Shown one piece after another: positions 6,102 to 54,904 of a stretch of 64,000 nucleotides of DNA (the first letter of the stretch is position 1; every line of letters begins with the position of its first letter). The DNA is from an uncultured Alphaproteobacteria bacterium (lineage in GTDB: Bacteria > Pseudomonadota > Alphaproteobacteria > Rickettsiales > UBA1997), in the NCBI GenBank assembly GCA_949288805.1, contig CASELL010000003.1, positions 1,789 to 65,788 of the forward strand, read 5' to 3'. The translations under genes were made by a program, and so were the position numbers. The notes beneath the pieces were generated by a model, which was not told the origin of the DNA, made no database searches, and was given only the letters and a program-made list of their open reading frames with translations.

Positions 6102-6563
6102 CTAATTAACATTATTATAACAATTAATTAATTTAATATCATATAATGGGTGTTCTAAACTAGATACACTAGGACTAGAAGAAAAAAACCAACCATAAAA
6201 AATATTTTCTTTCAATATGCTTTTCTTCTTTTTTTCATTTATTTTTAATAACAACTTATTTTCAACTCTTTCTTCTGGATAAGATTTCCAACATTTTAAA
6301 GCCTCTATTTCTAAATCACCAACCTTTGCAATATCTCCAATTTTTATATCTAAAATTACAGTTTCTCCTGTAGCTTTATTTAAAACCTGTATTTTTGTAT
6401 AATCAACAAACCGGTCGCTTGGTTGGTTTTTTATTAAATTTTTTTCTTCTTCCGGAACATTCTTTGAATTTAAATCATTTAAAAAACTACTTATATCATC
6501 AGACGAATAAGAACTCAAAGAAAAGATAAAAAAAATAAAAAAAAATAAACTACTTTTTATCAT
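6102..6563 (-). CDS. DUF2155 domain protein (secreted)
   Basis: 153 aa with a signal peptide. The core KIQVLNKATGETVILDIKIGD...LEIEALKCW is typical of DUF2155. It is adjacent to mlaD, as in many alphaproteobacteria. Confidence 0.65.
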   Translation of the reverse strand: MIKSSLFFFIFFIFSLSSYSSDDISSFLNDLNSKNVPEEEKNLIKNQPSDRFVDYTKIQVLNKATGETVILDIKIGDIAKVGDLEIEALKCWKSYPEERVENKLLLKINEKKKKSILKENIFYGWFFSSSPSVSSLEHPLYDIKLINCYNNVN

Positions 6564-7005
6564 TTGATGCCTTATTTAACATAAATCTTGTAATTAAATC
6601 TTCCAAATCCATAGTAGATTCTGTAAATTCAAAACTATCCCCATCAGCAAAATATTCTTCATCTCCACCAACTAAAATCTTTAAATATTTACCACCAATG
6701 ATCCCACTAGTGGATATTTTTAAATTACTATCAATTGGAAGTTGAACATCTTTTCTAATTCTTAAAGTTAATGTTGGTCTATAACTTTCGTCTATAAAAT
6801 AACTTTCAACGTCACCAATTTCTATGCCACCAATCTTAACTTTTGTGCCAATATTAACTCCCTCTATATTATCAAAGGAAGCATTTAGCCTATAATAATC
6901 CTTATTTATAGATCTATTGGTAATTCTTATTGTAAAAAATACAAAAAATACAGAAAATATTATAACCAAAAATCCAATTAAAGTCTCTAATTTGTTTATT
7001 TTCAT
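6550..7005 (-). CDS. mlaD: MlaD/MCE-domain outer-membrane lipid asymmetry protein
   Basis: 151 aa with an N-terminal TM anchor and an MCE domain (ASFDNIEGVNIGTKVKIGGIEIGDV). Confidence 0.85.
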   Translation of the reverse strand: MKINKLETLIGFLVIIFSVFFVFFTIRITNRSINKDYYRLNASFDNIEGVNIGTKVKIGGIEIGDVESYFIDESYRPTLTLRIRKDVQLPIDSNLKISTSGIIGGKYLKILVGGDEEYFADGDSFEFTESTMDLEDLITRFMLNKASNDKK

Positions 7006-7085
7006 AAAAAATATAAAATAAATAACTAAATATATTTTAAATTATAAAAATAAAAAGTAAATTATTTATTTTATATTTTATTTTT

Positions 7086-7721: not shown

Positions 7722-10700
7722 ATGAGTAAATTTCAAAAGTTACCGATAGATGGAAACGAAGCAGTTGCTAGAATAGCATATAAAATGTCTGATGTTTTTA
7801 CTATCTATCCAATTACTCCTTCTTCACCTATGGGTGAATTAGCAGATCAATTTTCAGCTAAGGGAGATAAAAATATTTTTGGTTTAAAGCCTAGTGTTAC
7901 AGAAATGCAAAGTGAAGCTGGAGCAGTTGGTGCTATGCATGGTGCTTTACAAACAGGAAGTTTAGCTTCTACTTTTACTTGTTCTCAAGGTCTTTTATTA
8001 ATGATTCCTAATATGTATAAAATAGCTGGTGAATTAACTCCTTGTGTTATGCATATAGCAGCAAGAAGTCTAGCAGCACAAGGTTTATCTATATTTGGAG
8101 ATCATCAAGATGTTATGTCAGTTAGACAAACTGGTTTTGCTATGATATCTAGTGGATCAGTTCAAGAAGCACACGATACAGCTTTAATAGCACATTTAGC
8201 TACTTTAAAATCAAAAGTTCCTTTTATTAATTTCTTTGATGGTTTTAGAACTTCACATGAAATTAACAAAATAGAATTAATTGATGATGAAACTATTAAA
8301 TCATTAATTGAAGATAAATACATAATTGAACATAGAAATAGATCTTTAAGACCTGATGAACCAGTTATGAGAGGAACCGCTCAAAATCCTGATGTTTATT
8401 TTCAAGGAAGAGAAGTTTCTAACAAACTATATAATGAAATACCAAGTATAGTTCAAGAATATTTTGATAAATTTGCTAAATTAACAGGAAGACAATATCA
8501 TTTATTTGATTATTATGGTTCAAAAGATGCAGAAAGAGTTATAGTTATTTTAGGTTCAGGAGTTCAAGCAGTTAAAGAAACAATTGAAACTTTAAATAAT
8601 GAAAAAATCGGTGTTTTACAAGTTAGATTATACAGACCATTCTCTGCGAAAGATTTTGTAAAAGCTATTCCTTCTACTTGTAAAAAAATAGCCGTATTAG
8701 ATAGAACAAAAGAACCAGGAAGCTTAGGAGAACCTTTATATTTAGATGTTGTTTCTGCTTTACATGAGGAAGGAAGAAATAATATAGAGGTTATAGGTGG
8801 TAGATATGGCTTATCTTCAAAAGAGTTCACGCCACCTATGGTAAAAGCTATTTTTGATGAATTAAATAAGTCTAATCCTAAAAAACACTTTACAGTTGGT
8901 ATTAAAGACGATGTAACAAATTTAAGTCTTGATTATTCTAGTGATTTTGCAATTAAAAATAATGATGTAAAAGAAGCTATATTTTTTGGTCTAGGAAGTG
9001 ATGGAACAGTTGGTGCCAATAAAAATAGTATAAAAATCATTTGTGATAGAGAAGAGTATTATGGTCAAGCTTACTTTGTATACGATTCTAAAAAATCTGG
9101 CTCTATTACAGAATCTCATTTAAGATTTGGTAAAAATAAAATCGATTCTACTTATCTAGTACAAAAAGCAGACTTTATTGGTTGCCATCAATTTACATTC
9201 TTATTTAAAATTGATATTTTAGGAAGAATTAAAAATGGTGGAACTTTATTGTTAAATACTCATTATTCTAAGGATGAAGTTTGGGATCGCTTGCCAAAAG
9301 TAGTTCAACAAACAATAATTGACAAAAATGTTAAATTATATGTTATAGATGCTTATGAAGTAGCTGAAAAAGCAAAAATGGGTGCTAGAATTAATACAAT
9401 CATGCAAACTTGTTTCTTTAAGCTTGCTAATGTAATTCCAGCAGAAGAGGCTATTGAAGAAATTAAAAAAGCTATTGTTAAAACATATAGTAAAAAAGGT
9501 CAAGAAATTGTTGATAACAATATAAAAGCAGTAGATGGCAGTCTTGCTAATTTATATGAAGTAAATTATCCTAAAAATATTACAAGTAATATAGAATTAG
9601 ATAAGAGTGTTACTGACGATGCTCCTGAATTTGTAAAAGATTTTACTGCTAAAATCATAGCTGGTAAAGGTGAAGAAATTAAAGTTTCTGAAATGTCATT
9701 AGATGGAACTTTCCCTACTGATACTACAAAATATGAAAAAAGAAATATAGCAGATAAAATAGCAGTATGGGATCAATCAAAATGTATTAGTTGTGGTCAA
9801 TGTGTTTTGGCTTGTCCTCACTCTTGTCTTGAAGCTAAAGAGTATACAGACGATCAAATTAAAAACGCTCCTTCTTGCTTTAAATTCAAAGAAGTATTAG
9901 GTGATAAAACAGGTACAAAAAGATATACAATTCAAATCTCTCCTGAAGATTGTACGGGTTGTAGTATATGTGTCTTAGCTTGTCCTGTTGACGCTTTATC
10001 AATGCAACATAAACACGAAGTTATTGATAACGAAAAAACAAGTAAAAAATTCTTTGATACAATTAAAGGTAATGAAGTAGCAGATCCTAATAATATCAAA
10101 GATATTCAATATAAAGACTCTTTGTTTAAATATTCTGGTGCTTGTGCTGGTTGTGGTGAAACACCTTACCTATCATTAATTACAAAATTATTTGGTGATA
10201 GAATGGTTGTTGCTAATGCTACCGGTTGTTCTTCAATTTATGGTGGTAATTTGCCTACAACGCCATGGTCTAAAAACAAAGAAGGTAGAGGTCCAGCTTG
10301 GTCTAACTCTTTATTTGAAGATAATGCAGAATTTGGTCTTGGTTTTAAATTAAGCCAAGAAACACAAAGAGATGAAGCAATTGATCTTTTAAATAATTTA
10401 AAAGCTGAAATTGGTGAAGATTTAGTTAATGCTATAATTGAAAATTATGGTAAAAATAAAGATCAAGAAATTAAAGATCAAAGAGAAAGAGTTCAAGCTG
10501 TTAAAGATAAATTAGCTAAAATCAATACTTTTGAAGCTAAGCATTTAATAGCAATTATTGATGTAATGGTTGAAAGAAGTGTTTGGATTATAGGTGGTGA
10601 TGGCTGGGCTTATGACATCGGATTCGGTGGTTTAGATCATGTTATAGCAAGTGGTAAAAATGTAAATATATTAGTAATGGATACAGAAGTTTATTCAAAT

Positions 10701-11225
10701 ACAGGTGGACAAGCTTCAAAAGCTACTAATATGGGTGCTTCTGCTAAATTTGCTGTAAATGGAAAACCAACATTCAAAAAAGATCTTGGTGCTATTGCTA
10801 GAACATATGGTAATGTTTATATAGCACAAGTTGCTATTAGAGCAAATCCAATGCAAGCAATGAAAGCAATTAAAGAAGCTGAAGCTTATAATGGTCCATC
10901 AATTATAATTGCTTACTCTTCTTGTATAGCTCATGGCGCTCCATTAGAAACAAGCTTCACTCAACAAAAAAACGCTGTTGAAAGTGGTATGTGGTTATTA
11001 TATAGATATAATCCAGATTTATTAGCACAAGGAAAATCTCCAATGCAATTAGATTGTAAAGAACCTAAATTAGATTTATTGGAAACTTTCTTATATGCTG
11101 AAACTAGATATAGTTATATAAAGAAAACTAACCCAGAATATGCTAGTCAAGCTGTTGAACACTTGAAAGAACATATTACTAAAAAATGGAAAGAATATAA
11201 ATTATATGCAGATAATGCATTATAG
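7722..11225 (+). CDS. nifJ: Pyruvate:ferredoxin (flavodoxin) oxidoreductase, single-polypeptide type
   Basis: 1167 aa. It has two 4Fe-4S motifs (CISCGQCVLACP, CTGCSICVLACP) and the TPP-binding motif GGDGWAYDIGFGG. Domain order is typical of PFOR. Confidence 0.96.
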   Translation: MSKFQKLPIDGNEAVARIAYKMSDVFTIYPITPSSPMGELADQFSAKGDKNIFGLKPSVTEMQSEAGAVGAMHGALQTGSLASTFTCSQGLLLMIPNMYKIAGELTPCVMHIAARSLAAQGLSIFGDHQDVMSVRQTGFAMISSGSVQEAHDTALIAHLATLKSKVPFINFFDGFRTSHEINKIELIDDETIKSLIEDKYIIEHRNRSLRPDEPVMRGTAQNPDVYFQGREVSNKLYNEIPSIVQEYFDKFAKLTGRQYHLFDYYGSKDAERVIVILGSGVQAVKETIETLNNEKIGVLQVRLYRPFSAKDFVKAIPSTCKKIAVLDRTKEPGSLGEPLYLDVVSALHEEGRNNIEVIGGRYGLSSKEFTPPMVKAIFDELNKSNPKKHFTVGIKDDVTNLSLDYSSDFAIKNNDVKEAIFFGLGSDGTVGANKNSIKIICDREEYYGQAYFVYDSKKSGSITESHLRFGKNKIDSTYLVQKADFIGCHQFTFLFKIDILGRIKNGGTLLLNTHYSKDEVWDRLPKVVQQTIIDKNVKLYVIDAYEVAEKAKMGARINTIMQTCFFKLANVIPAEEAIEEIKKAIVKTYSKKGQEIVDNNIKAVDGSLANLYEVNYPKNITSNIELDKSVTDDAPEFVKDFTAKIIAGKGEEIKVSEMSLDGTFPTDTTKYEKRNIADKIAVWDQSKCISCGQCVLACPHSCLEAKEYTDDQIKNAPSCFKFKEVLGDKTGTKRYTIQISPEDCTGCSICVLACPVDALSMQHKHEVIDNEKTSKKFFDTIKGNEVADPNNIKDIQYKDSLFKYSGACAGCGETPYLSLITKLFGDRMVVANATGCSSIYGGNLPTTPWSKNKEGRGPAWSNSLFEDNAEFGLGFKLSQETQRDEAIDLLNNLKAEIGEDLVNAIIENYGKNKDQEIKDQRERVQAVKDKLAKINTFEAKHLIAIIDVMVERSVWIIGGDGWAYDIGFGGLDHVIASGKNVNILVMDTEVYSNTGGQASKATNMGASAKFAVNGKPTFKKDLGAIARTYGNVYIAQVAIRANPMQAMKAIKEAEAYNGPSIIIAYSSCIAHGAPLETSFTQQKNAVESGMWLLYRYNPDLLAQGKSPMQLDCKEPKLDLLETFLYAETRYSYIKKTNPEYASQAVEHLKEHITKKWKEYKLYADNAL

Positions 11226-11234
11226 TTTATAATT

Positions 11235-11260
11235 AAAGGTGGAGTTAACTCCACCTTTTT
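11235..11260 (+). terminator. Rho-independent terminator after nifJ
   Basis: aaaggtggag-ttaa-ctccaccttt stem-loop followed by a T run, 10 nt after the nifJ stop. Confidence 0.85.
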
Positions 11261-11277
11261 AATTAATAATTAAAAAT

Positions 11278-13609: not shown

Positions 13610-14188
13610 TTAATATAATTTTTCATTTAATTCAATAAAGTATTCTTGTTTGTGGTTACAAGCAGGGCACACTAATGGAGCTTCAGCAGAAGCAACATGA
13701 TAACCACAATTTGTACATTTCCAAACAACTAGACCAGCTTTTTTGAATAATCCTTGTTTGTTTAAATCTTCAATAAGTTTATTGAATCTTTCTTCGTGAT
13801 AAGTTTCAGCAGTAGCTATATTTTCAAAAGCCTTAGCTATAACTTCAAAACCTTCATCTCTAGCTATTTTAGCAAATTCTGGATACATGTCGGCCCATTC
13901 TTCATGTTCACCATTAGCTGCTGCAACAAGATTTTCCATTGTTGTTCCAATTTTTCCTGCTGGGAAGGTAGCTGTAATTTCTAACATGTCACCTTCTTCT
14001 AAAAACTTAAAAAATCTTTTAGCATGTTCTTTCTCATGATTAGCTGTTTCTTCAAAAATAGCAGCTATTGTAGGATATCCTTCTTTTTTTGCTACACTAG
14101 CAAAATAAGTATATCTATTTCTAGCTTGAGATTCACCAGCAAAAGCTTTCATTAAATTTTCTTTTGTTTTGGTTCCTTCTAATTTCAT
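13610..14188 (-). CDS. rbr: Rubrerythrin
   Basis: 192 aa with an N-terminal ferritin-like diiron domain (EsqARNRY, EHAK, EEW motifs) and a C-terminal rubredoxin-like CTNCGY...CPACNH. Confidence 0.95.
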   Translation of the reverse strand: MKLEGTKTKENLMKAFAGESQARNRYTYFASVAKKEGYPTIAAIFEETANHEKEHAKRFFKFLEEGDMLEITATFPAGKIGTTMENLVAAANGEHEEWADMYPEFAKIARDEGFEVIAKAFENIATAETYHEERFNKLIEDLNKQGLFKKAGLVVWKCTNCGYHVASAEAPLVCPACNHKQEYFIELNEKLY

Positions 14189-19724: not shown

Positions 19725-22454
19725 TTAATCATTTCCAAGCCATTCATCAACTCTACTTAAATGAGTAAAATTACTATAACCATTCTTGTTTGTTGCTATA
19801 AATGGGCTATTTTTTATAGCATCTATTATTGTAATTAATCTATTTTCTATAATTTTAAGATCAAAATTACCAGAATTAAAAGATTTCACTTCTTGTTTAT
19901 TAAAATTAATATACCAATATTCAAATTGACTAACTTTATAATTATTTTTGTTTAGTATATAATATTCAAGAGGTAATTGTATCTCTCTTAAATTTTCAAC
20001 ATCTTTATCTTTTTTTTCTCCACCAGTTTTATAATCTACTATATCAATAATATTATCAATTTTTTTTTCTATTCTATCAATTTTAGCACTTATATTAAAA
20101 TCATTTAATCTTACAAAAAATCTATTTTCAGTTAAAACGCTTTCAAAATGTCTTTCTTTTCTTATTCTAATAAAATTATCAAAAGCAACTTTTACTTTAT
20201 CATAATAGAGCCTTATCATTGTTTTATTGTTTAAAAATAAATTATTTAACTCTTCGTTTATTATATTATCACAATTTTTTGGTTTTTCATTTTCATATCT
20301 TTCAAGTATTTTATGTATTAAATTACCAATTGCTAAGTTTAAATTATAATTTTCAAACACATCTGTTTCATATAATTTTAATATGTATTGAGCATATATA
20401 TCATATGGATTTTTTATAAAAGTATTTATTAAAGTTGGAGATAGATTCATTAATCTATATTTTTTATCTGGACAAGGCTCAGGTCTTTTTGCTTTATAAT
20501 TATATTCTTCTATTTCATTAATAAGTTTATAAATATCCTTAATTTTATTGTCTGTATTTAATTGTAATTTATTACAATATAATAAAGTTTTTATTCTTTG
20601 TAAAAATCTTGACTCAAACGATATATTTCCAGCGACTTTCTTTGATCTAGTAATAACAACATTTTTTTGAGATATTAATTGTATAAAATCATGTGCACTT
20701 TTCCCTATTTCTATATCTCTTGATAATAACCCAAAACTTTTTCTCATACTTTTACTCATCCAAGGATCTGTAGCTATATTTCTAGGAAAAACGCCATCAT
20801 TCATATTAAATAATACAACTAAATCATAATTTATTAATCTTGCCTCTTGTTGTGATATTATATTTATTGCTTTATTTTTTGAATAATTTTCACTATATGA
20901 TTGTTGAGAAAAAATATAACTAATTAACTTAAAATATGTTTCTACATTAATATTTTTACATAAATCTATTGATAATATATTTTTATTTATAAAATCAATA
21001 ATTTCCAAATCTTCATCTTTTAAATCAAAACTTATATTTTTTAACAAAGCAATATGATTATTTAAAAAATTACTAAAACTATCTTTTTCTTTAAAAATAG
21101 AATAATATTCTAATATTTTATCAAGAAATATATTTAATTCATTGTCCCCTTTTAATTTATAAAAATCTATATTGTCATCATTTAGAGAATATACAAAAAT
21201 ATTTTCTTTTAATTCAATTTTGTAATTATTTAATTCTTCTTTATTATAACCAAAACTTATTCTTTCATTATTAAGCAAATCAATAAAAACTTCTTTCTTA
21301 AACTCATCAATATAACATTGAATTATTAATAAAAAATATTTCACAAAATTATTATTTATATATTTATTACCAAAAGCATTATTAATTGGTAAATTATATT
21401 TTTTTAGGTTTAATTCTATTAAATGAGAATATTCATCGGTTGATATTATAGCTATATTATTTAAAGTATTTTTAGCTATATAATCTAATAAATATAAAGT
21501 TATTACATCAATTTCTTCATAAATATTATCACATTCAAAATATTTTATATTATCAAGATTATTTAAGTCTTTGTTGTTATGCCAATTATTAGTTAAAGAA
21601 TAATTTGACATGGCTTTATTTATTAGATCAACACTATTTATTGTTTTGTATTCTTCATATTCTATATTTTTTATATCTTTAATATCTAAATATTTAATTA
21701 TGTTATTATAATAATAATTACTGTCTATTTCATCAGCTATACAATCTTTTATATAACCCTTCATAAAATAATATGTATTATCATAAACAGATAAAGTTTT
21801 TATTAATTCATTTGTTATTTTAATATCTGTAAAAATACCAGCAAAAATTATAGGATTTTTTGGTTTTTTATTTTTAAAAGAATCTTTATAAAACTTTAAA
21901 TTAATTAAAGAGTTTTTATTTTTAGATATAATATTATTTTCATTTAAAAACTTATTCCATTTCTTACCAAAAACTTTTAAAAACTTTAATATTTTTTGCC
22001 AATGTAAAGAATATTCATCATCAACTATATTCTCTAAATCGTCCAGATTTAATTCTTGTTGTTCTACTTCTTGAAAAAAATTACTTAATTCATTAGCAAG
22101 ATTTATTGCTTGGTCTATATTTATATTTTCTTCTATTAATTTTTCTATTAATAAAAGTTTATATTTAATAGCAGAAGTGGATTTTGTAATATCAAGATAC
22201 TTTTCTATATTATCATAATCAAGACTTAATATTTCATCATAATCTATATCACCTATCGCTTTAATATTTGGTAAAATTATTGACTTCTTGTTTGAATTTT
22301 CTAAAAAAATTTTTTTTAATTCATTTACTGATCTTCTACTTGGCAAAAATACATCAACAAAAGACATATCTATGTCATTATCAAAATTATCAACTATGTA
22401 CTTATATAAACTTCTTAAAAAATCATAATTTGATGGGATATTTAAAAAAATCAT
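19725..22454 (-). CDS. addB: Double-strand break repair protein AddB, alphaproteobacterial type
   Basis: 909 aa. The N-terminus has ...VFLPSRRSVNELKKIF. The C-terminal PD-(D/E)xK nuclease has DRIEK...IIDIVDYKTG. It is divergent and Asn/Ile-rich. Confidence 0.7.
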   Translation of the reverse strand: MIFLNIPSNYDFLRSLYKYIVDNFDNDIDMSFVDVFLPSRRSVNELKKIFLENSNKKSIILPNIKAIGDIDYDEILSLDYDNIEKYLDITKSTSAIKYKLLLIEKLIEENINIDQAINLANELSNFFQEVEQQELNLDDLENIVDDEYSLHWQKILKFLKVFGKKWNKFLNENNIISKNKNSLINLKFYKDSFKNKKPKNPIIFAGIFTDIKITNELIKTLSVYDNTYYFMKGYIKDCIADEIDSNYYYNNIIKYLDIKDIKNIEYEEYKTINSVDLINKAMSNYSLTNNWHNNKDLNNLDNIKYFECDNIYEEIDVITLYLLDYIAKNTLNNIAIISTDEYSHLIELNLKKYNLPINNAFGNKYINNNFVKYFLLIIQCYIDEFKKEVFIDLLNNERISFGYNKEELNNYKIELKENIFVYSLNDDNIDFYKLKGDNELNIFLDKILEYYSIFKEKDSFSNFLNNHIALLKNISFDLKDEDLEIIDFINKNILSIDLCKNINVETYFKLISYIFSQQSYSENYSKNKAINIISQQEARLINYDLVVLFNMNDGVFPRNIATDPWMSKSMRKSFGLLSRDIEIGKSAHDFIQLISQKNVVITRSKKVAGNISFESRFLQRIKTLLYCNKLQLNTDNKIKDIYKLINEIEEYNYKAKRPEPCPDKKYRLMNLSPTLINTFIKNPYDIYAQYILKLYETDVFENYNLNLAIGNLIHKILERYENEKPKNCDNIINEELNNLFLNNKTMIRLYYDKVKVAFDNFIRIRKERHFESVLTENRFFVRLNDFNISAKIDRIEKKIDNIIDIVDYKTGGEKKDKDVENLREIQLPLEYYILNKNNYKVSQFEYWYINFNKQEVKSFNSGNFDLKIIENRLITIIDAIKNSPFIATNKNGYSNFTHLSRVDEWLGND

Positions 22455-33157: not shown

Positions 33158-33541
33158 ATGAAAAAAAACAATATGATATATAAATGTAGTGTTTGTGGTA
33201 ATGTAATTGCCATTAATCACTTTGGAGGAGGCAAATTAGTATGTTGTAATAAAGAAATGTTTCTTTTGGACGAAAAAACAAAAGATGGGGCTAACGAAAA
33301 ACATCTCCCAGTATTAACAAAAATAGATGATAATACCTATAAAGTTGTTGTTGGAGAAGTTGAACATCCAATGACAGAAGAACATTATATAGAATACATT
33401 GAAGTTCTTACAGACAAAAATGAAAGGCTTACATCTTTTATAAAAGATAAACCAGAAGCAATATTTAAAACAGAAAACAAAATAGTTAGTGTTTCTTCAT
33501 ATTGTAATCTTCATGGTTTATGGACTTTAAATATTAAATAA
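33158..33541 (+). CDS. dfx: Desulfoferrodoxin (2Fe superoxide reductase)
   Basis: 127 aa. The N-terminal desulforedoxin motif is CSVCGN...VCCNKEM. Center II ligands are EKHLPV, HPMTEEHYIEYI and CNLHGLW. Confidence 0.92.
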   Translation: MKKNNMIYKCSVCGNVIAINHFGGGKLVCCNKEMFLLDEKTKDGANEKHLPVLTKIDDNTYKVVVGEVEHPMTEEHYIEYIEVLTDKNERLTSFIKDKPEAIFKTENKIVSVSSYCNLHGLWTLNIK

Positions 33542-45449: not shown

Positions 45450-46641
45450 TAATATTTTTAATAAGAATTTAATTGCTTTATTTAAAATATTAATAAATAA
45501 AGGAGATGAAGCTAGATTAGTTGGTGGTTGTGTTAGAAATTATATTTTAAATAAAGAAATAAATGACTATGATATAGCAACAATATATACTCCTAATGAA
45601 TTGGAACAAATATTAACAAAAAACAATATTGCTTTTTTAACTGTTGGTAAAAAATTTGGAACAATAACAGCCTTATATAGAGGAGAAAAATATGAAATAA
45701 CAACATTAAGAAAAGATATAAAAACAGATGGAAGACATGCAATTGTAGAGTTCACAAGAGATTATAAAGAAGATGCAAAAAGAAGAGACTTTGCTTTTAA
45801 TGCCATGTACATAGATTTTAATGGAAAATTATATGATTATTTTAATGGACTAGAAGATTTAATTAATAATAATATATCTTTTATAGGGGATGCACAAAAA
45901 AGAATAGATGAAGATAATTTAAGAATACTACGTTTTTTTAGGTTTTATGGTTCGTATTGTTTTTCATCAAATTATAATGATTTATCTATTTGTAAAAAAA
46001 ATAAAAACAAAATAAAAAACCTTTCTTTAGAAAGAATTAGTGATGAAATACATAAAGCAATGCTATCAGATTCTTTTCTTGATATATTAACAATTATGCA
46101 AAATAACGATATTTTACAAGATATTTTCAAGACATATATAAATTTTAATAATCTAGAATTGTTTTTTTATATAAGAAAAAATCTCAATTTTCACTATAAC
46201 CATCTTTTTATTATAGCGTTGATATTATCAAACAATAAAATAAACTATGAACTATTACTTTCAAAAAAAGAAAAAAAATATATAAATACAATACTTCAAA
46301 ATATTCCAAAAATAATCAATAAATTTGAGATTAAGAAATTATTGTTTAATTTAAAGGATAAATTGTTAGTAAAAAATATAATAATTATTTATTTTTGTAA
46401 TAATTATAAAAACTTTAAAATTATAGAAAAAAACTTAAAACTTGTTGATAAATTAAATATACCAGCATTAGAAATAAATGGTGATGATCTAAAAAATAAT
46501 AATTTTAATATTAATAAATATGAATATAAAAAACTATTAGAACAAGCAAAGAATATTTTTGTAAGCAGTAATTTTAAAATAAAAAAAGAAAAAATTATAA
46601 AAAAACTATTAAAAGTAAATAACAAAAAAGAACATAAATAA
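45424..46641 (+). CDS. cca: CCA-adding enzyme / poly(A) polymerase family nucleotidyltransferase
   Basis: 405 aa with RLVGGCVRNYIL...DYDIAT and the RRDF..NAM motif. Confidence 0.88.
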   Translation: MFLLEKNYSNIFNKNLIALFKILINKGDEARLVGGCVRNYILNKEINDYDIATIYTPNELEQILTKNNIAFLTVGKKFGTITALYRGEKYEITTLRKDIKTDGRHAIVEFTRDYKEDAKRRDFAFNAMYIDFNGKLYDYFNGLEDLINNNISFIGDAQKRIDEDNLRILRFFRFYGSYCFSSNYNDLSICKKNKNKIKNLSLERISDEIHKAMLSDSFLDILTIMQNNDILQDIFKTYINFNNLELFFYIRKNLNFHYNHLFIIALILSNNKINYELLLSKKEKKYINTILQNIPKIINKFEIKKLLFNLKDKLLVKNIIIIYFCNNYKNFKIIEKNLKLVDKLNIPALEINGDDLKNNNFNINKYEYKKLLEQAKNIFVSSNFKIKKEKIIKKLLKVNNKKEHK

Positions 46642-48036
46642 GATAACTAAAAAAATTGAGAAATATGTTGTTAATAAAAGTCTTTTATTTGTTTTTGTAT
46701 CACTGTCTTCTTGTCTTTCGATAATATTTTTATTTACTAAAACCTTAAATATAATAAAAACAATGGATATTTTATTAACTATAAATGGCACTAAAAGAAT
46801 ATAATTTTTATCACTAAAAATAGATATAAAAAAATATTTATTAGCGATAAAACTCGAAGCTATTGGTAAATAAAGTCTATATAAAAGTATAACTATAAAA
46901 AAAACTTTTAAAAACTTACTATTATTTAACGCTGCTATGTTGTTTGTTTTATATTTTAAAGATATCATATCAGAAAAAAAATATAATGTTAAACTTATAA
47001 ATAGAAAATCTAAAACATAATCTATAACAATAGCAACATCATCATATAAAAATATAGCAATTACTGTATAAAATATACCGATCAAATTTAGTCTTATAAA
47101 AATATTAAATATAGAATTGTAGTTTTCCTTTTTAAACAACAATATAGAGTTATATATAATAGAAATAATAGATAAATATATAAATATTTTATCAATAAAA
47201 AATAAGTTAAATATATTTTCTGTTGGCAAAATATAAAAAATAACATTTGAAAGAAGAAAAATACCCAAAAGGCTATTTACAAATATATTTGATATTGAAA
47301 TAAAATTAACCGTTTTATAATCAGTATTATGATATCTACTAACACTATTTGTAAAAAACCTAATAACCACAGAAAAAACAAATAATAATATTATTAAGAA
47401 TATATTATAATATTCTTCTAATCTAATTGTTAATAATTGTTGTTTTATCAAAAAAATACTACTTGTATTAAAATATACTAACATATAAAATATGCTTAAC
47501 ATATTTAATATTGAACCAAAGATATTATTTGAGAAATATTTATATGACAATATGTTTAAATTTGTATCTTTATAATTTGTTATTATTATATAATTTGAAA
47601 AAGAATACAATTCTAAAAAAATAAATAAATGAAATATATTATCTGTCAATAATATACCTATAGTTGAAAATATATGTAAAAAATATATAGAGAAAAAATG
47701 TTTTATATATCCTATATCTTTCTTTTTTGTTAAAACTAAATCATCAACATAGTTTATAAAACCTATAAAATTTATAAACAAAATATTAACTAAAAAAAAT
47801 ATATTAAAAATATCCAATTTGAATTCTGTTCCTATTATATTAAACGTTGCTGTTGAATTTACAATTATAGTTGTATTTGGATCGATACTACTAAATATTT
47901 TAATTGTAAAAATTGTTAAGGTCATTAATATTAAATAACCAACATTACTTAAAAATCTCTTTCCCTCTAAGAAATAAATAAAAACAGAGGACATTAATGG
48001 AATAAAATATAATAAATAAGATAATGTATTACTCAT
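46609..48036 (-). CDS. Mrp/Mnh antiporter subunit D-like (NuoN/Proton_antipo_M family) membrane protein, degenerate
   Basis: 475 aa with about 14 TM segments. DNIFHLFIFLELYSFSNYIIIT and SYKYFSNNIFGSILNMLSI follow the family pattern. The canonical K..PFH.W.P segment reads IRFFTNSVSRYHNTD. Confidence 0.6.
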   Translation of the reverse strand: MSNTLSYLLYFIPLMSSVFIYFLEGKRFLSNVGYLILMTLTIFTIKIFSSIDPNTTIIVNSTATFNIIGTEFKLDIFNIFFLVNILFINFIGFINYVDDLVLTKKKDIGYIKHFFSIYFLHIFSTIGILLTDNIFHLFIFLELYSFSNYIIITNYKDTNLNILSYKYFSNNIFGSILNMLSIFYMLVYFNTSSIFLIKQQLLTIRLEEYYNIFLIILLFVFSVVIRFFTNSVSRYHNTDYKTVNFISISNIFVNSLLGIFLLSNVIFYILPTENIFNLFFIDKIFIYLSIISIIYNSILLFKKENYNSIFNIFIRLNLIGIFYTVIAIFLYDDVAIVIDYVLDFLFISLTLYFFSDMISLKYKTNNIAALNNSKFLKVFFIVILLYRLYLPIASSFIANKYFFISIFSDKNYILLVPFIVNKISIVFIIFKVLVNKNIIERQEDSDTKTNKRLLLTTYFSIFLVILFMFFFVIYF

Positions 48037-48304
48037 TTTTATTGCTGTTTATTATGTTATTAATTATAAATATTCCACTTAGAATATTTATTAAACAATT
48101 AAAAATTATTAAAATTATAAAATCTATAATTGAATTTTCTATATTAAAAACATTCATATTATATATAACAAAAAATAATATAATGTTATAAGCAAAAGCT
48201 AACACTAATATTTTTAATATTGGTTTTCTTGTAAATAAAAAAACAAACATTAATACAAAAAATAATAATAAAAATAAATATAAAAATAATTCTTTAAAAA
48301 ACAT
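48029..48304 (-). CDS. Small 3-TM membrane protein in the MrpC/NuoK position
   Basis: 91 aa. The assignment rests on size, topology and position immediately upstream of the D-like subunit. No strong motif. Confidence 0.4.
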   Translation of the reverse strand: MFFKELFLYLFLLLFFVLMFVFLFTRKPILKILVLAFAYNIILFFVIYNMNVFNIENSIIDFIILIIFNCLINILSGIFIINNIINSNKNE

Positions 48305-48576
48305 TACTTAACTAAAATATTTAAAAAATAATATATAAAACATAAAAAACAAAATAAAAATATACTAATAAACTTTTTAAAAGAAATAACCTTAAATGGG
48401 TTTATTTTTCCAAATCTCAAATAAAACAATATATAAGATATTAATACAGATATTGAAAAATTTAATAATGTTAAAACGCCAAATTCTTTGATATAAAAAA
48501 AACAAGTAACAGAATATAATAATAAAAACGGTATTAAAAAAGAAATTAATATCTTTAAAAACAAATCACCTATCAT
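48304..48576 (-). CDS. Small membrane protein in the MrpB/MnhB position
   Basis: 90 aa with 3 predicted TM segments. It overlaps its neighbours by 1-4 nt. Confidence 0.35.
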   Translation of the reverse strand: MIGDLFLKILISFLIPFLLLYSVTCFFYIKEFGVLTLLNFSISVLISYILFYLRFGKINPFKVISFKKFISIFLFCFLCFIYYFLNILVK

Positions 48577-49187
48577 TTTTGCCTCATATTATTTATAATA
48601 AAGAAAGATATTAACATAATTATATAAAATAATATTATTAGATTATAATGTTTAAAAAATCCATTGTTTTCTATAAAACTTATATTCTTGTTATATACAA
48701 TGTATGTTTTTTCTTTTGTATTAATGTATAATTTTTCTTGTTTTAAATCATCTTTATTTTTATAATAATAATTTTTATCTGTTAGTATATTATTATTTAA
48801 TTGATTTGTATAAAGTCTTTCTCTATTACTACTTAAAGAAAAAAAGATAAATGAAATTAAAATAAAACTAAAAACAAATATTATAATAGTTAATATATTT
48901 TTTATGTCACTGTTCTCAATATAGTCCGATGAAAGCAAATTTGAGTTGGGATCTAAATAAATATAAAAAAAAACCATAGATAATATAAAAAATATATTTA
49001 ATGTAACAATAGATAAAAAATTAATTTCATTTTTTATAATAATTGAATAATTAAAAATATTTATAAAACAAGAAATAAAAAATACCATAAACTTAGAATC
49101 AATTGTTTTTGTATAAAAAACAAAAGCTATATAAACTAATGCCACTAGTAATGTAAAAAATATATCAAGGTTGGCTATTATATCCAT
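48573..49187 (-). CDS. Polytopic membrane protein (possibly equivalent to the MrpA C-terminal/DUF4040 region)
   Basis: 204 aa with about 5 TM segments. It is the first gene of the tightly overlapping four-gene membrane set. Confidence 0.35.
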   Translation of the reverse strand: MDIIANLDIFFTLLVALVYIAFVFYTKTIDSKFMVFFISCFINIFNYSIIIKNEINFLSIVTLNIFFILSMVFFYIYLDPNSNLLSSDYIENSDIKNILTIIIFVFSFILISFIFFSLSSNRERLYTNQLNNNILTDKNYYYKNKDDLKQEKLYINTKEKTYIVYNKNISFIENNGFFKHYNLIILFYIIMLISFFIINNMRQK

Positions 49188-49251: not shown

Positions 49252-49782
49252 TTATATGCCTCTCTGTTTACCAGCTGCCCTATCCCTAGCATGCATCATA
49301 TTAACCCAATAACCAGCATCATTCTGTTCTCTTAATATATCAGCTTGTTGCATCAAGCTTGTAACTCTTTGTCCCATAATTAAAGAAGTCCAATAACCAA
49401 TAGGCTTTACTATTCCTACAATATTTTTTTTATTATAATTAGGTTCTTCACCAACAACCTGTCCTACTTTCGGCAACCTTTGGACATTTTTTAATTGTAA
49501 ATCTTGTTGTCTTTGTTTTTCTTTTTCAATTATTTTAGCTTCTCTTTCTTTTTGCTTTTCTATATCTTTATCTCTAAATAAAACATCATTTCTATTAGAT
49601 GGAACATAACCACCACCACTTTCAAATGATTCTTTTGGTCTAATTAGAGATAAAAGTTGCATATACTTTTTAATTGTGTATTTATAAAATATAGTAGCAA
49701 TTATTCTTATTATTGTAATTATAAAAAAAACTACAAAAGATAAAAAACATATAAAAATAATTGCTTCTTTTAAATCAAACAT
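49252..49782 (-). CDS. Hypothetical membrane-anchored protein co-oriented 2 nt downstream of hydA
   Basis: 176 aa with one N-terminal TM segment, a KE-rich coiled region and the C-terminal block VGIVKPIGYWTSLIMGQRV...GYWVNMMHARD. No family recognised. Confidence 0.55.
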   Translation of the reverse strand: MFDLKEAIIFICFLSFVVFFIITIIRIIATIFYKYTIKKYMQLLSLIRPKESFESGGGYVPSNRNDVLFRDKDIEKQKEREAKIIEKEKQRQQDLQLKNVQRLPKVGQVVGEEPNYNKKNIVGIVKPIGYWTSLIMGQRVTSLMQQADILREQNDAGYWVNMMHARDRAAGKQRGI

Positions 49783-49784: not shown

Positions 49785-51089
49785 TTAATTATTATTATCA
49801 AAAGTTCTATAAAATAAAGTATGTTTATAATCTTTAGATTTACTCCAATCTAAATAGTCAATTAAATTACTATTATCAAGAGCACATTTAATTTTATTTG
49901 AATTATCAAGACTATTTAAAACAGATCTTCTTTTTTCAATTAAATCTTGTTCTGCTCCTGCCTTAGGTGGTAATAAAGGTTGACCTCCACCATTAAGACA
50001 ACCACCATTACAATTCATTACTTCAATGTAAATATATTCTTTGTATTTACCTGTTTCAATAAACTTTTTAATATTTTTAGGTGTATGTATTACAGCAACT
50101 TTCAACTTTTTATTATCAATTTCAAGTTCTGCTTCTTTGAAAGAATAATCCTCTTCATTTACTTCTTTAAATTCTAATTTATCAAGTGCTTTGTTTTCTA
50201 GCTTCTTTTTTACAACTCTCAAAGCAGATTCCATTACACCACCACTTTTTCCATAAATTACAGCACCACCACTATATTTAGATAAATCATCTGCTTCACT
50301 TTCTTCAAGATTTAAAAAGTCTATATTTTCATCTTTCATTAATTGACCAAATTCTCTAACAGTAATAGAATAGTCAACAGGATTATATTTCTTGTATATA
50401 TGTATTTCATCTTTTTTAGAAGTACAAGGCATAATTGAAACAACAACTATATTTTTAGGATCTATGTTGTTTTTTTCTGCCCACCAAGTTTTATAAGCTA
50501 TTCCTGAATGGATATGTGGCGACATTGCAGTAGTAAGATTGTTTATTAATTCTGGTTTATATCTTTCAACAAAATTTACCCATGAAGGACAACAAGAAGT
50601 AAACATTGGGAGTTTATTTTCTTCAATTCTTTCTAATAATTCTTCTGCTTCTGCATAACTTGTAATATCTGCTCCAAAATTAACATCAAAAATCTTATCA
50701 AAACCTAACATTCTTAAAGCAGTATTAATTTTCTTTTCCATTAATGGACTATGTTCTGCTTTAAATATTTCATTAATTGAAGTTCTAACCGAAGGGGCAC
50801 ATTGAACTATTTTAATTTTAGTTTTATCTTTTAATAAAGTTTTTATTTCTTCAATATTTCTTTGCTCTATCATACAATTAAAAGGACAAACAAGAGTACA
50901 TTGACCACAATTTACACAAGGATTTTCTTTTACAAAATCAAGATATCTTTCTTTGCCTTCGCCTTTAATTGTTAAATGATCTATTCCTATCAAATTACAT
51001 TTTTGTACACATTTAGTACATTTAGTACATTTAGATCTAATAAATTCAATAGAATAATCTTTTTTTACTATATCTTCCATAAAAAACAT
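49785..51089 (-). CDS. hydA: [FeFe]-hydrogenase catalytic subunit, M2 architecture (2x[4Fe-4S] plus H-cluster domain)
   Basis: 434 aa. The ferredoxin-like motifs are CTKCTKCVQKC and CVNCGQCTLVCP. The H-cluster signatures are FTSCCPSWV, IMPCTSKKDE and EVMNCNGGCLNGGGQP. Confidence 0.93.
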   Translation of the reverse strand: MFFMEDIVKKDYSIEFIRSKCTKCTKCVQKCNLIGIDHLTIKGEGKERYLDFVKENPCVNCGQCTLVCPFNCMIEQRNIEEIKTLLKDKTKIKIVQCAPSVRTSINEIFKAEHSPLMEKKINTALRMLGFDKIFDVNFGADITSYAEAEELLERIEENKLPMFTSCCPSWVNFVERYKPELINNLTTAMSPHIHSGIAYKTWWAEKNNIDPKNIVVVSIMPCTSKKDEIHIYKKYNPVDYSITVREFGQLMKDENIDFLNLEESEADDLSKYSGGAVIYGKSGGVMESALRVVKKKLENKALDKLEFKEVNEEDYSFKEAELEIDNKKLKVAVIHTPKNIKKFIETGKYKEYIYIEVMNCNGGCLNGGGQPLLPPKAGAEQDLIEKRRSVLNSLDNSNKIKCALDNSNLIDYLDWSKSKDYKHTLFYRTFDNNN

Positions 51090-54006: not shown

Positions 54007-54116
54007 AAATTGAAATTTTGTTTTTTAATATTGTAAAACCTTGTTTTATAAATAACAAGAACTTTTTATTATTTATATAATTCTTAAGAAACTATAAAAA
54101 TCAAAATTGCATTTAA

Positions 54117-54896
54117 TTATACAGCAACTTCACCTTTAATTGCTGGATGACATTGATAATCAACCAACTCAAAATCTTCATACTTAAAAGAAAATATATC
54201 TTTCACATCAGGATTTATTTTCATAGTAGGCAATTTATAAGGCATTCTAGCAAGTTGAGTTTTTACTTGTTCTATATGATTTAAATAAATATGAGTATCA
54301 CCAGTTGTATGGACAAAATCGCCAAGTTCTAGATCACATACTTGTGCCATCATCATAGTTAACAAAGCATAAGAAGTAATATTAAAAGGCACACCCAAAA
54401 AACAATCAGCAGATCGTTGATATAATTGACAACTTAATTTATTATTTATAACAAAAAACTGGAACATTGTATGACAAGGAGGCAAAGCCATTTTATCAAC
54501 ATCTTGTGGATTCCAAGCAGAAACAATAATTCTCCTAGAATTAGGATTTGTTTTTAAAGTATTAACCACATTAGTAATTTGATCTACACCATTAAAATTT
54601 CGCCATTGTTTACCATAAACAGGCCCTAGATCACCATTTTCATCAGCCCATTCATTCCATATTCTAACACCATGATCTTGTAAATATTTTACATTAGTAT
54701 CACCATTTAAAAACCAAAGCAATTCATAAATTATTGATTTTAAATGAATTTTTTTAGTTGTAACAATAGGAAAACCATCATTTAAATTATATCTTGTTTG
54801 AGTACCAAAAAGAGATATGGTTCCAACACCAGTTCTATCTTCCTTTTTTTCCCCATTTTCCAAAATATTTCTTAATAAATCCAAATATTGTTTCAT
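54117..54896 (-). CDS. thyA: Thymidylate synthase (ThyA type)
   Basis: 259 aa with RTGVGT, LPPCH, QRSAD motifs. Confidence 0.97.
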
Positions 54897-54904
54897 AAAA
54901 GCTC

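What the first reader, a model, noticed from the sequence alone, without database searches (positions are those of the whole stretch)
7722..11225. PFOR completes a hydrogenosome-style pyruvate-to-acetyl-CoA-plus-H2 route, and no pyruvate dehydrogenase or respiratory genes are in the window
Seen: a full-length, well-conserved single-chain PFOR has its own strong terminator (11235-11260). A HydA lies 38 kb away. The neighbouring genes carry alphaproteobacterial hallmarks (the mlaD-DUF2155 pair at 6102-7005, alpha-type addB, GTA-type DUF2460). Known: PFOR plus [FeFe]-hydrogenase is the core of hydrogenosomal and clostridial pyruvate fermentation. Inference: this is a fermentative, H2-linked energy metabolism in a reduced, probably host-associated, alphaproteobacterium-like organism. 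That would resemble the symbionts reported from anaerobic protists, though I cannot identify the organism.
Basis: partly seen in the sequence, partly recalled or inferred. Interest (0 to 1): 0.65.

Follow-up and report, generated by a model that had tools for sequence, protein, structure and literature searches.

The report
PFOR and hydrogenase in gut alphaproteobacterium
An intact pyruvate:ferredoxin oxidoreductase gene and an intact iron-only hydrogenase gene lie 38 kb apart in a very AT-rich, tightly packed genome piece from an uncultured Rickettsiales-like bacterium whose relatives were recovered from termite guts, which fits the oxygen-free fermenting lifestyle already proposed for such reduced gut lineages, so the find is solid but not surprising.

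Summary
7722-11225(+) encodes a full-length single-chain PFOR: NCBIfam equivalog TIGR02176 at 1727 bits, all 12 cluster cysteines, and the TPP motif. A real hairpin plus T-run follows at 11235-11260. A monomeric M2-type [FeFe]-hydrogenase with intact H-cluster motifs lies at 49785-51089(-). Both genes share the window's extreme codon bias (GC3 about 0.11) and are under purifying selection. Rubrerythrin and desulfoferrodoxin add an anaerobe signature.

For PFOR, HydA and the vertical marker FtsH, almost all named relatives are 'MAG: Rickettsiales bacterium'. Several of the HydA relatives carry locus tags I recognise as termite-gut. Contigs of relatives carry rvh-like type IV secretion genes, and one carries an N-type ATPase operon.

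Published work already describes reduced gut alphaproteobacterial orders (Rs-D84/Enterousia, UBA3830, RUG11792). Rs-D84 lacks the TCA cycle and respiratory chains. UBA3830 and RUG11792 are putative protist endosymbionts.

The window holds no ferredoxin, no HydEFG maturases and no ATP-yielding acetyl-CoA step. The absence of pdh and respiratory genes from 64 kb says little. This organism's order, habitat and host were not established.

Verdict: a new member of a known kind, of moderate interest.

The parts
7722..11225 (+). Single-chain homodimer-type pyruvate:ferredoxin (flavodoxin) oxidoreductase (PFOR, NifJ/YdbK type), 1167 aa. It lacks the C-terminal extension of about 68 aa seen in the D. 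africanus enzyme.
   Evidence: TIGR02176, 1727 bits against cutoff 911; 6CIN and 1B0P, full length; 12 Cys ligands and the GDG..N motif; GC3 0.109; dN/dS 0.13 against L003.
11235..11260 (+). Intrinsic-terminator-like hairpin (10-bp stem, 4-nt loop, T-run) between PFOR and the next gene on the same strand, an RlmM/FtsJ-like methyltransferase at 11278.
   Evidence: -17.6 kcal/mol, z -4.97. Not called by the consensus scan.
49785..51089 (-). Monomeric M2-type [FeFe]-hydrogenase HydA (two 4Fe-4S F-clusters plus the H-domain), 434 aa. The start may lie 3 codons later, because the database representative is 431 aa.
   Evidence: CpI residues 135-549, 324 bits; the H-cluster motifs are kept, with only conservative changes, across 32 clade members. 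GC3 0.106..
49252..49782 (-). 176-aa single-pass membrane protein of an uncharacterised family, 3 bp downstream of hydA. The same arrangement occurs in a relative. A link to HydA is possible but unproven.
   Evidence: 64% identity to the gene after hydA in L086; 108 clusters, no Pfam or NCBIfam family; helical, low-confidence model.
13610..14188 (-). Rubrerythrin (peroxide detoxification, typical of anaerobes).
   Evidence: NF045767 equivalog, 277.5 bits against cutoff 200.
33158..33541 (+). Desulfoferrodoxin-type superoxide reductase.
   Evidence: TIGR00320, 138.7 bits against cutoff 146.9; both domain models are above their cutoffs.
6102..7005 (-). The mlaD-DUF2155 gene pair.
   Evidence: TIGR04430 MlaD, 139.7 bits against cutoff 135; PF09923 DUF2155.
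19725..22454 (-). AddB. The best model is the alphaproteobacterial type. No AddA gene is adjacent.
   Evidence: TIGR02786 addB_alphas 1.7e-90, 304.6 bits, below cutoff 486.5.
56283..56876 (+). Lone GTA-type distal tail protein gene (DUF2460, Rcc01695 family).
   Evidence: TIGR02217, 142.3 bits against cutoff 136.65.
46609..49187 (-). Four overlapping, very hydrophobic ORFs (204, 90, 91 and 475 aa). The 475-aa product is a very divergent MrpD/NuoM-like antiporter subunit. This is a probable Mrp-type cation/proton antiporter remnant, not a respiratory complex.
   Evidence: (PRK12662 3e-18, full length, far below cutoff). The adjacency to hydA is not conserved in L086.
52027..55333 (-). Transketolase, thymidylate synthase and RpiB. 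The first and last are non-oxidative pentose-phosphate steps, as reported for reduced gut alphaproteobacteria.
   Evidence: compare PMC12306168.

Best explanation
The window comes from an uncultured, AT-rich (24% GC), gene-dense alphaproteobacterium of the Rickettsiales-labelled lineages. Its named relatives are MAGs, several apparently from termite guts, and more distant ones come from other gut-type metagenomes.

Its PFOR oxidatively decarboxylates pyruvate to acetyl-CoA and CO2. Electrons pass through three [4Fe-4S] clusters to a low-potential carrier (ferredoxin or flavodoxin) that must be encoded elsewhere. The monomeric M2-type [FeFe]-hydrogenase HydA re-oxidises that carrier and releases H2. 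Rubrerythrin and a superoxide reductase protect these oxygen-sensitive enzymes.

Shown here: both genes are intact, carry every catalytic and cofactor motif, have the codon usage of the host genome, are under purifying selection, and are kept through a whole clade of related MAGs.

Inferred: the direction of flux, the electron carrier, the presence of HydEFG maturases, ATP gain from acetyl-CoA, the absence of respiration, and dependence on a eukaryotic or other host.
For: PFOR identity and completeness.

HydA identity and motifs. The motifs are kept in 32 clade members.

Native genes: GC3 is 0.109 (PFOR) and 0.106 (HydA) against about 0.11 for the window's genes.

Purifying selection: 3 synonymous and 0 non-synonymous PFOR differences against strain L002. 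dN/dS is about 0.13 (PFOR against L003) and about 0.21 (HydA against L086), with dS near saturation.

Clade-wide retention: the PFOR clade runs from 100% to 63% identity, its named members are all 'Rickettsiales bacterium', and it is separate from all other PFORs at 59% or less. The HydA clade behaves likewise. In one relative the PFOR (P0022) and the HydA (P0253) both have a longest contig of 206,138 bp, and P0253 lies on ERZ16268143 scaffold_216 of exactly that length.

Anaerobe markers: rubrerythrin and desulfoferrodoxin.

Taxonomy: among FtsH's named hits, nine of thirteen are 'Rickettsiales bacterium' and one is 'Rickettsiaceae bacterium'; the other three are broader or apparently mis-binned labels. 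addB_alphas, MlaD+DUF2155 and the GTA gene add to this.

Host-association hints, from relatives only: a 1897-aa TrbL/VirB6-domain protein and TrbC in L086; VirB8 and CagX in L088; TrbI, VirB11, VirB8 and CagX on a 711-kb scaffold in L091.

Literature: PMC12306168 (Rs-D84/Enterousia: under 1 Mb, no TCA cycle, no respiratory chain, POR in the pathway scheme), PMC11257099 (UBA3830 and RUG11792 from termites and ruminants, low GC, ATP/ADP antiporter, putative flagellate endosymbionts), PMC9177762.
Against: The window has no ferredoxin- or flavodoxin-like ORF (motif scans; Pfam).

No radical-SAM or GTPase maturase (HydE/G/F) is in the window or in any of the five HydA neighbourhoods of relatives that I inspected.

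No Pta/AckA, ASCT/SCS or ADP-forming acetyl-CoA synthetase gene was found.

The HydA score (388.9 bits) is just under the curated TIGR02512 cutoff (405.95).

Synteny around PFOR and HydA is not conserved, so no operon logic links them.

The window is a small fraction of the genome, so the absence of respiration is not tested.

I could not tell which GTDB order the organism belongs to, nor what its sample (ENA ERZ16268199 / ERZ16268048) was.
Confidence: 0.65

Rival explanations
1. The organism is an energy parasite. It imports ATP through a nucleotide transporter, as proposed for UBA3830 and RUG11792. PFOR mainly supplies acetyl-CoA for lipid synthesis, and HydA only vents the resulting electrons. 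The pair is then a biosynthetic and redox-balancing module rather than the core of energy metabolism.
For: The NTT (ATP/ADP antiporter) is reported in the related gut orders (PMC11257099). The camel-rumen study failed to find fermentation key enzymes in UBA3830 (PMC9177762). The window encodes phospholipid synthesis steps (CDP-alcohol phosphatidyltransferase, PS decarboxylase, DAG-kinase-like) but no acetate-forming, ATP-yielding enzyme.
Against: No NTT gene is in the window. PFOR is more conserved than FtsH between the same genomes: 77% against 67% identity for P0035 and P0295, which share a 214,770-bp contig length. That suggests a central role. Some Rs-D84 genomes do have Pta/Ack (PMC12306168).
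Confidence: 0.25
2. The organism is a free-living gut scavenger or an epibiont on other prokaryotes, as proposed for some reduced gut lineages, not an endosymbiont of anaerobic protists.
For: PMC12306168 proposes a partner-dependent or scavenger lifestyle for Rs-D84 without showing a protist host. PMC11257099 notes that Rs-D84 also occurs in flagellate-free higher termites. The window keeps peptidoglycan synthesis (PBP1A, PBP2), the Mla system and a mechanosensitive channel. Coding density is 94% with few pseudogenes.
Against: Relatives carry rvh-like type IV secretion genes, including a giant VirB6-like protein. I know these from the literature as typical of intracellular Rickettsiales. UBA3830 and RUG11792 are regarded as putative flagellate endosymbionts (PMC11257099).
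Confidence: 0.3
3. HydA is a non-functional relic or has a non-catalytic (sensory) role, because the maturases are missing.
For: No HydE/F/G was found in the window or next to HydA in five relatives.
Against: All H-cluster and F-cluster ligands are kept across 32 clade members that diverge to about 55% identity. dN/dS is about 0.2. The architecture is the catalytic group A type, not the PAS-containing sensory type. Maturase genes are commonly unlinked to hydA (my own knowledge).
Confidence: 0.07
4. PFOR and/or HydA are on this contig through mis-assembly, mis-binning or very recent horizontal transfer, and say nothing about the alphaproteobacterial host.
For: The PFOR clade has no alphaproteobacterial sister. 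The next relatives, at 59% or less, are Ignavibacteria and other phyla.
Against: Both genes lie inside one contiguous 64-kb stretch between alphaproteobacterial housekeeping genes. The same PFOR arrangement was assembled independently in two other samples at 99.6-99.8% identity, with L001 spanning window positions 1-21226. Codon usage is indistinguishable from the neighbours. PFOR identity falls in step with FtsH identity across the clade.
Confidence: 0.02

Closest known systems
Moorella thermoacetica PFOR (PDB 6CIN) and Desulfovibrio africanus PFOR (PDB 1B0P)
   Same: Same single-chain architecture (domains I, II, III, EKR linker, ferredoxin-like domain V, TPP domain VI), the same 12 cluster cysteines and the same TPP motif. 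Full-length alignment at 1307 and 1199 bits.
   Different: The length matches the Moorella enzyme (1167 against 1171 aa). The alignment ends at about residue 1163 of the 1231-residue D. africanus chain, so its C-terminal extension of about 68 residues is absent. From my own knowledge, that extension confers oxygen stability.
Clostridium pasteurianum CpI and other group A [FeFe]-hydrogenases
   Same: The H-domain with motifs L1-L3 and the two accessory [4Fe-4S] F-clusters. The protein aligns to CpI residues 135-549.
   Different: It lacks CpI's two N-terminal domains (the [2Fe-2S] and the His-ligated [4Fe-4S]). It is therefore the short M2 form of 434 aa. Its score sits just under the NCBIfam group A cutoff.
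Hydrogenosomal and clostridial pyruvate fermentation (PFOR, ferredoxin, HydA, then ASCT/SCS or Pta/Ack)
   Same: The two signature redox enzymes are both present and intact in one genome piece.
   Different: The ferredoxin, the HydEFG maturases and the ATP-yielding acetyl-CoA step were not found in the window, so only two of at least five components are shown.
Reduced gut alphaproteobacterial orders Rs-D84 ('Ca. Enterousia'), UBA3830 and RUG11792 (GTDB names; PMC12306168, PMC11257099, PMC9177762)
   Same: Uncultured gut-associated alphaproteobacteria with small genomes. UBA3830 and RUG11792 are described as low in GC. Rs-D84 and the camel-rumen alphaproteobacterial MAGs lack the TCA cycle, and Rs-D84 lacks a respiratory chain. 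For Rs-D84, POR is in the published pathway scheme and the non-oxidative pentose-phosphate genes are kept, and the window likewise has tkt and rpiB. UBA3830 comes from termites and ruminants. The window's HydA relatives include MAGs whose locus tags I recognise as termite-gut.
   Different: I could not assign the window to any one of these orders. No 'Enterousia'-named protein appeared among the best hits. In the papers I could read, an [FeFe]-hydrogenase is not reported for these lineages.
'Candidatus Hydrogenosomobacter endosymbioticus' (a Holospora-related symbiont of the anaerobic ciliate Trimyema; recalled from memory, not checked here)
   Same: A reduced alphaproteobacterial symbiont living in an anaerobic protist.

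Membership tests
Single-chain PFOR (TIGR02176, pyruvate:ferredoxin/flavodoxin oxidoreductase) | Whole-protein score above the curated equivalog cutoff, with a full-length match. | tested here: met
   1726.7 bits against cutoff 911.35, residues 9-1163 on profile positions 4-1166 of 1167.
Single-chain PFOR (TIGR02176, pyruvate:ferredoxin/flavodoxin oxidoreductase) | Three [4Fe-4S] clusters (12 Cys) and the TPP-binding GDG...N motif. | tested here: met
   Cys 688/691/694/698, 744/747/750/754 and 808/811/836/1068; GDG at 959. Aligned with 6CIN.
Single-chain PFOR (TIGR02176, pyruvate:ferredoxin/flavodoxin oxidoreductase) | Pyruvate-dependent reduction of ferredoxin or flavodoxin. | not testable with these tools
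   Needs an enzyme assay.
[FeFe]-hydrogenase group A (HydA) | H-cluster motifs L1 (TSCCPxW), L2 (MPCxxKxxE) and L3 (ExMxCxxGCxxGGGQP). | tested here: met
   FTSCCPSW, MPCTSKKDE and EVMNCNGGCLNGGGQP, kept with only conservative changes in 32 clade members.
[FeFe]-hydrogenase group A (HydA) | Curated NCBIfam score cutoff for group A (TIGR02512). | tested here: inconclusive
   388.9 bits against cutoff 405.95. Pfam Fe_hyd_lg_C scores 257 bits against cutoff 22. CpI scores 324 bits.
[FeFe]-hydrogenase group A (HydA) | HydE, HydF and HydG maturases in the same genome. | not testable with these tools
   None is in the window or in the neighbourhoods of five relatives. The rest of the genome could not be read.
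Hydrogenosome/clostridial-type pyruvate-to-acetate-plus-H2 pathway | A low-potential ferredoxin or flavodoxin linking PFOR to HydA. | tested here: not met
   No 2x[4Fe-4S] or [2Fe-2S] ferredoxin-like ORF in any frame, and no flavodoxin Pfam hit within the window. Genome-wide status is unknown.
Hydrogenosome/clostridial-type pyruvate-to-acetate-plus-H2 pathway | An ATP-yielding conversion of acetyl-CoA (ASCT+SCS, Pta+AckA or ADP-forming ACS). | tested here: not met
   No such gene in the window. Genome-wide status is unknown.
Alphaproteobacteria, Rickettsiales-like reduced gut lineages | A vertical marker and lineage-typical genes point to Alphaproteobacteria. | tested here: met
   Of FtsH's 13 named hits, 9 are 'Rickettsiales bacterium' and 1 'Rickettsiaceae bacterium'; the rest are 'Proteobacteria'/'Pseudomonadota bacterium' and one apparently mis-binned 'Bacilli bacterium'. 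addB_alphas is AddB's best model. MlaD+DUF2155 and the GTA-type TIGR02217 gene are present. This is naming by best hit, not a phylogeny.
Alphaproteobacteria, Rickettsiales-like reduced gut lineages | Small genome, low GC, high coding density. | tested here: inconclusive
   The window is 24% GC and 94% coding. The largest scaffold seen for a relative is 711 kb. The genome size of this organism was not seen.
Alphaproteobacteria, Rickettsiales-like reduced gut lineages | Absence of the TCA cycle and respiratory chain; presence of NTT and/or T4SS. | not testable with these tools
   Only 64 kb is available. T4SS genes were seen only on contigs of relatives.

The most novel reading that the evidence does not exclude
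PFOR and the short [FeFe]-hydrogenase are ancestral and vertically inherited in a strictly anaerobic, H2-evolving lineage that branches within or next to Rickettsiales and lives inside anaerobic gut protists. That would make it a living bacterial analogue of a hydrogenosome. One or both enzymes might also prove specifically related to the eukaryotic hydrogenosomal versions. A smaller variant of this reading is that the conserved 176-aa membrane protein after hydA tethers or partners the hydrogenase at the membrane.
Probability: 0.12. Interest if true: 0.8.

Novelty: new member of a known kind. Interest (0 to 1): 0.35.

Why it matters
If the whole genome confirms the picture, it adds an explicit H2-producing pyruvate pathway to the reduced gut alphaproteobacteria. 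Those lineages have so far been described mainly by what they lack. It would also make them H2 sources for methanogens and acetogens in guts.

Anaerobic, Rickettsiales-related, host-dependent bacteria with PFOR and HydA are also useful comparison points in the debate on the origin of mitochondria and hydrogenosomes. By itself, though, the window shows only two well-known enzymes in a lineage already suspected to be a fermenter.

Tried and rejected
- Consensus terminator scan: it found none in 7000-12000. I rejected this as a false negative after reading and folding the sequence.
- Rfam: only two tRNAs, and no riboswitch or other RNA near PFOR.
- Assigning a GTDB order. The single genome-collection scan gave one close genome, titled only 'uncultured Alphaproteobacteria bacterium Batch6_idba_bin.52'. 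Cluster look-ups gave no further names. The supplements of PMC11257099 held no matching terms. No 'Enterousia' name appeared among the hits.
- Looking for maturases through relatives. The metagenome scan with HydA returned only two unrelated loci at 51% and 38% identity. A radical-SAM motif scan of all alphaproteobacterial loci was empty.
- Conserved operon logic. PFOR flanks differ in L003/L092 (TolC-HlyD-ABC, MurG) and HydA flanks differ in L083, L085 and L088. I rejected the idea of a PFOR-HydA or HydA-Mrp gene cluster.
- The 176-aa protein: no Pfam or NCBIfam family even through 38 relatives. The single-sequence AlphaFold model was low in confidence (pTM 0.27), so I ran no fold search.
- The PFOR neighbour-joining tree contains two mis-extracted sequences on long branches (L013, L006). 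I used it only to show that the clade stands apart.
- Literature searches for anaerobic Rickettsiales with PFOR plus HydA found no direct description.

Full report
WHAT IS THERE

The window is extremely AT-rich (17-30% GC per 2-kb block) and densely coded (about 94%).

The ORF at 7722-11225(+) encodes a 1167-aa protein. Pfam finds POR_N, PFOR_II, POR, EKR, two 4Fe-4S motifs and the TPP-binding domain. It scores 1726.7 bits on the NCBIfam equivalog model for pyruvate:ferredoxin (flavodoxin) oxidoreductase, against a cutoff of 911. It aligns over its full length with the solved PFORs of Moorella thermoacetica (6CIN, 1307 bits) and Desulfovibrio africanus (1B0P, 1199 bits).

All twelve cysteines that hold the three [4Fe-4S] clusters are present, and so is the GDG...N thiamine-diphosphate motif. 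The alignment stops at about residue 1163 of the 1231-residue D. africanus chain. The C-terminal extension of that enzyme is therefore missing.

Ten bases after the stop codon lies AAAGGTGGAG-TTAA-CTCCACCTTT followed by more T residues (11235-11260). A 61-nt window folds at -17.6 kcal/mol, z = -4.97, and none of 200 shuffles folds as well. The simple terminator scan missed it, probably because part of the T-run pairs with the A-run of the stem.

THE HYDROGENASE AND OTHER ANAEROBE MARKERS

At 49785-51089(-), 38.6 kb from PFOR, is a 434-aa protein. It has two CxxCxxCxxxC(P) motifs, the Fe_hyd_lg_C domain (2e-76) and intact H-cluster motifs FTSCCPSW, MPCTSKKDE and EVMNCNGGCLNGGGQP.

It aligns to residues 135-549 of Clostridium pasteurianum hydrogenase I (324 bits). 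That makes it the short 'M2' form of a group A [FeFe]-hydrogenase. Its NCBIfam group A score (388.9) is just below the curated cutoff (405.95).

The window also encodes a rubrerythrin (equivalog, above cutoff) and a desulfoferrodoxin-type superoxide reductase. From my own knowledge, these are typical oxygen defences of anaerobes.

ARE THE GENES NATIVE AND IN USE?

Third-position GC is 0.109 for PFOR and 0.106 for HydA. The window's genes in general sit near 0.11.

The PFOR end of the window was assembled independently in two other ENA samples at 99.6-99.8% nucleotide identity. The three PFOR differences against one of them are all synonymous.

Against more distant relatives, dN/dS is about 0.13 for PFOR (L003) and about 0.21 for HydA (L086). 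dS is near saturation in both, so the true ratios are probably lower.

The H-cluster and F-cluster ligands are kept, with only conservative changes, in 32 members of the HydA clade. Mis-assembly, recent transfer and pseudogenisation are therefore unlikely.

WHOSE GENOME IS IT?

PFOR has about 70 database clusters that run from 100% down to 63% identity. Every one that carries a name is 'MAG... [Rickettsiales bacterium]'. After that, identity drops to 59% or less, to Ignavibacteria/Melioribacter and many other phyla.

In a neighbour-joining tree the clade stands alone. It is not next to two other gut alphaproteobacterial PFORs.

HydA behaves the same way. Its named relatives carry locus tags (LBP39_, LBU15_, LBB09_, LBI29_, Ta2D_, FACS1894152_) that I recognise as termite-gut data sets, which is my own attribution.

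The vertical marker FtsH gives the same picture. Nine of its thirteen named hits are 'Rickettsiales bacterium' and one is 'Rickettsiaceae bacterium'. The other three are 'Proteobacteria bacterium', 'Pseudomonadota bacterium' and an apparently mis-binned 'Bacilli bacterium'. Identities fall in step with those of PFOR.

Within the window:
- AddB's best model is the alphaproteobacterial addB type (below the curated cutoff).
- The MlaD equivalog sits next to DUF2155.
- DUF2460 is the GTA-type distal tail protein, above its cutoff.

Contigs of relatives carry Rickettsiales-style type IV secretion genes:
- L086: a 1897-aa TrbL/VirB6-domain protein and TrbC.
- L088: VirB8 and CagX, together with GTA head genes.
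- L091, a 711-kb scaffold: TrbI, VirB11, VirB8 and CagX.

None of these is in the window itself.

WHAT THE LITERATURE ALREADY SAYS

Mies et al. [quoted passage not shown] UBA3830 is from termites and ruminants. Both have low GC and small genomes, carry an ATP/ADP antiporter, and are regarded as putative endosymbionts of gut flagellates. The same paper notes that Rs-D84 also occurs in flagellate-free termites.

Begmatov et al. 2025 (PMC12306168) describe Rs-D84/'Ca. Enterousia' from farm animals:
- genomes under 1 Mb;
- incomplete glycolysis;
- non-oxidative pentose-phosphate genes;
- no TCA cycle and no respiratory chain;
- ATP synthase and a proton-pumping pyrophosphatase in some genomes;
- Pta/Ack in some genomes;
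- POR in the pathway figure.

A camel-rumen study reports the same two orders without TCA cycle enzymes (PMC9177762).

I found no paper that reports an [FeFe]-hydrogenase, or the PFOR-HydA pair, for these lineages. I could not determine which of these orders, or Rickettsiales proper, the window belongs to.

WHAT IS NOT SHOWN

The route is not complete in the window:
- No ferredoxin-like ORF exists in any frame, and there is no flavodoxin hit.
- No HydE/F/G maturase is present in the window or beside HydA in five relatives.
- No enzyme that would turn acetyl-CoA into ATP was found.

The absence of pdh and respiratory genes from 64 kb is true but carries little weight.

The one complex-I-like hit is a very divergent MrpD/NuoM-type subunit at 46609-48036. 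It belongs to a cluster of four overlapping membrane ORFs, probably an Mrp-type antiporter.

In one relative whose PFOR is 81% identical, an ATPase operon lies 3-10 kb from PFOR. Its gene order is beta, epsilon, small ORF, a, c, b, alpha, gamma. I recognise that order as the N-ATPase order, with beta split into two ORFs. Membrane energetics should therefore not be assumed absent.

Gene order around PFOR and HydA is not conserved among relatives, so there is no operon argument.

MOST LIKELY MECHANISM

PFOR oxidises pyruvate to acetyl-CoA and CO2. It hands electrons to a ferredoxin or flavodoxin encoded elsewhere. HydA disposes of them as H2. Rubrerythrin and superoxide reductase protect the system.

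I put this at about 0.65. The main rivals are:
- The organism is chiefly an ATP importer, and the pair serves acetyl-CoA supply and redox balance (0.25).
- The organism is a free-living scavenger or epibiont rather than a protist endosymbiont, which is a lifestyle question (0.3).
- HydA is an inactive relic (0.07).
- The genes are there by artefact or recent transfer (0.02).

VERDICT

The enzymes are textbook members of their families. The host lineage is a little-studied but already named group of reduced gut alphaproteobacteria. This is a new member of a known kind.

It would become important only in two cases: if whole-genome and phylogenetic work showed an ancestral, hydrogenosome-like metabolism in a Rickettsiales-related endosymbiont, or if it showed a specific link to the eukaryotic enzymes.

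Noticed in passing
window 49252-49782 (-): A 176-aa protein with one N-terminal membrane helix and a conserved C-terminal motif (IVGxVKPxGxWTxLxxGQ...GxWVNMxxA) lies 3 bp downstream of hydA. A 64%-identical gene follows hydA in relative L086. The family has about 108 clusters at 50% identity and matches no Pfam or NCBIfam model.
   Followed up: partly
window 46609-49187 (-): Four overlapping, extremely hydrophobic and AT-rich ORFs (204, 90, 91 and 475 aa). The largest is a very divergent MrpD/NuoM-like subunit (PRK12662, 3e-18). This is probably a decaying or fast-evolving Mrp-type antiporter. Its position next to hydA is not conserved in L086.
   Followed up: partly
window 1-2119; L001 1-3944: Window 1-1664 is the 3' part of a type I restriction-modification methylase gene (hsdM) that runs off the left edge. 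In strain L001 the hsdS-hsdM cassette sits between two 216-bp direct repeats (91% identical) and splits ruvC. The window keeps only an 81-aa RuvC N-terminal ORF at 1874-2119 and differs from L001 by an indel of about 73 bp there.
   Followed up: partly
window 57579-64000 (-): This is the C-terminal 2,140 aa or so of a roughly 4,000-aa protein (3999-4024 aa in other strains) that runs off the right edge. It is rich in Asn and Cys (3.2% Cys), has no predicted membrane helix and no Pfam hit. It may be a giant secreted or surface protein.
   Followed up: partly
window 19725-22454 (-): An alphaproteobacterial-type AddB has no AddA gene next to it. The only UvrD-family helicase in the window (35353-37509, 718 aa) is UvrD/PcrA-sized.
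   Followed up: no
L092 16801-22933 (relative, PFOR 81% identical): An ATPase operon with the gene order beta, epsilon, small ORF, a, c, b, alpha, gamma and no delta lies 3-10 kb from PFOR. I recognise this as the N-ATPase order. The beta subunit is called as two ORFs (155 and 296 aa).
   Followed up: no
L086 1633-7326 and 18658-19011; L088 16933-18361; L091 1-1120 and 5288-6830: Relatives carry scattered type IV secretion genes: a 1897-aa TrbL/VirB6-domain protein, TrbC, VirB8, CagX/VirB9, TrbI/VirB10 and VirB11. This resembles the Rickettsiales rvh system. L088 also has GTA head-tail genes.
   Followed up: partly
window 14330-15676 (+), 39448-40419 (+), 42869-43432 (-): There are signs of pathway erosion. 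An EPSP-synthase-like protein scores far below the aroA cutoff. A 323-aa protein matches only the N-terminal part of the NAD+ synthase models. Both sit in the same window as an ordinary shikimate kinase.
   Followed up: no
L089 (ENA ERZ28654447, contig tag XIEF21-1): The nearest HydA group outside the Rickettsiales-labelled clade (435-437 aa, with a small-subunit-like C-terminus) also sits on 25% GC bacterial-looking contigs. One of them has hydA next to formate-tetrahydrofolate ligase and a lactate/malate dehydrogenase. Its organism is unknown.
   Followed up: partly
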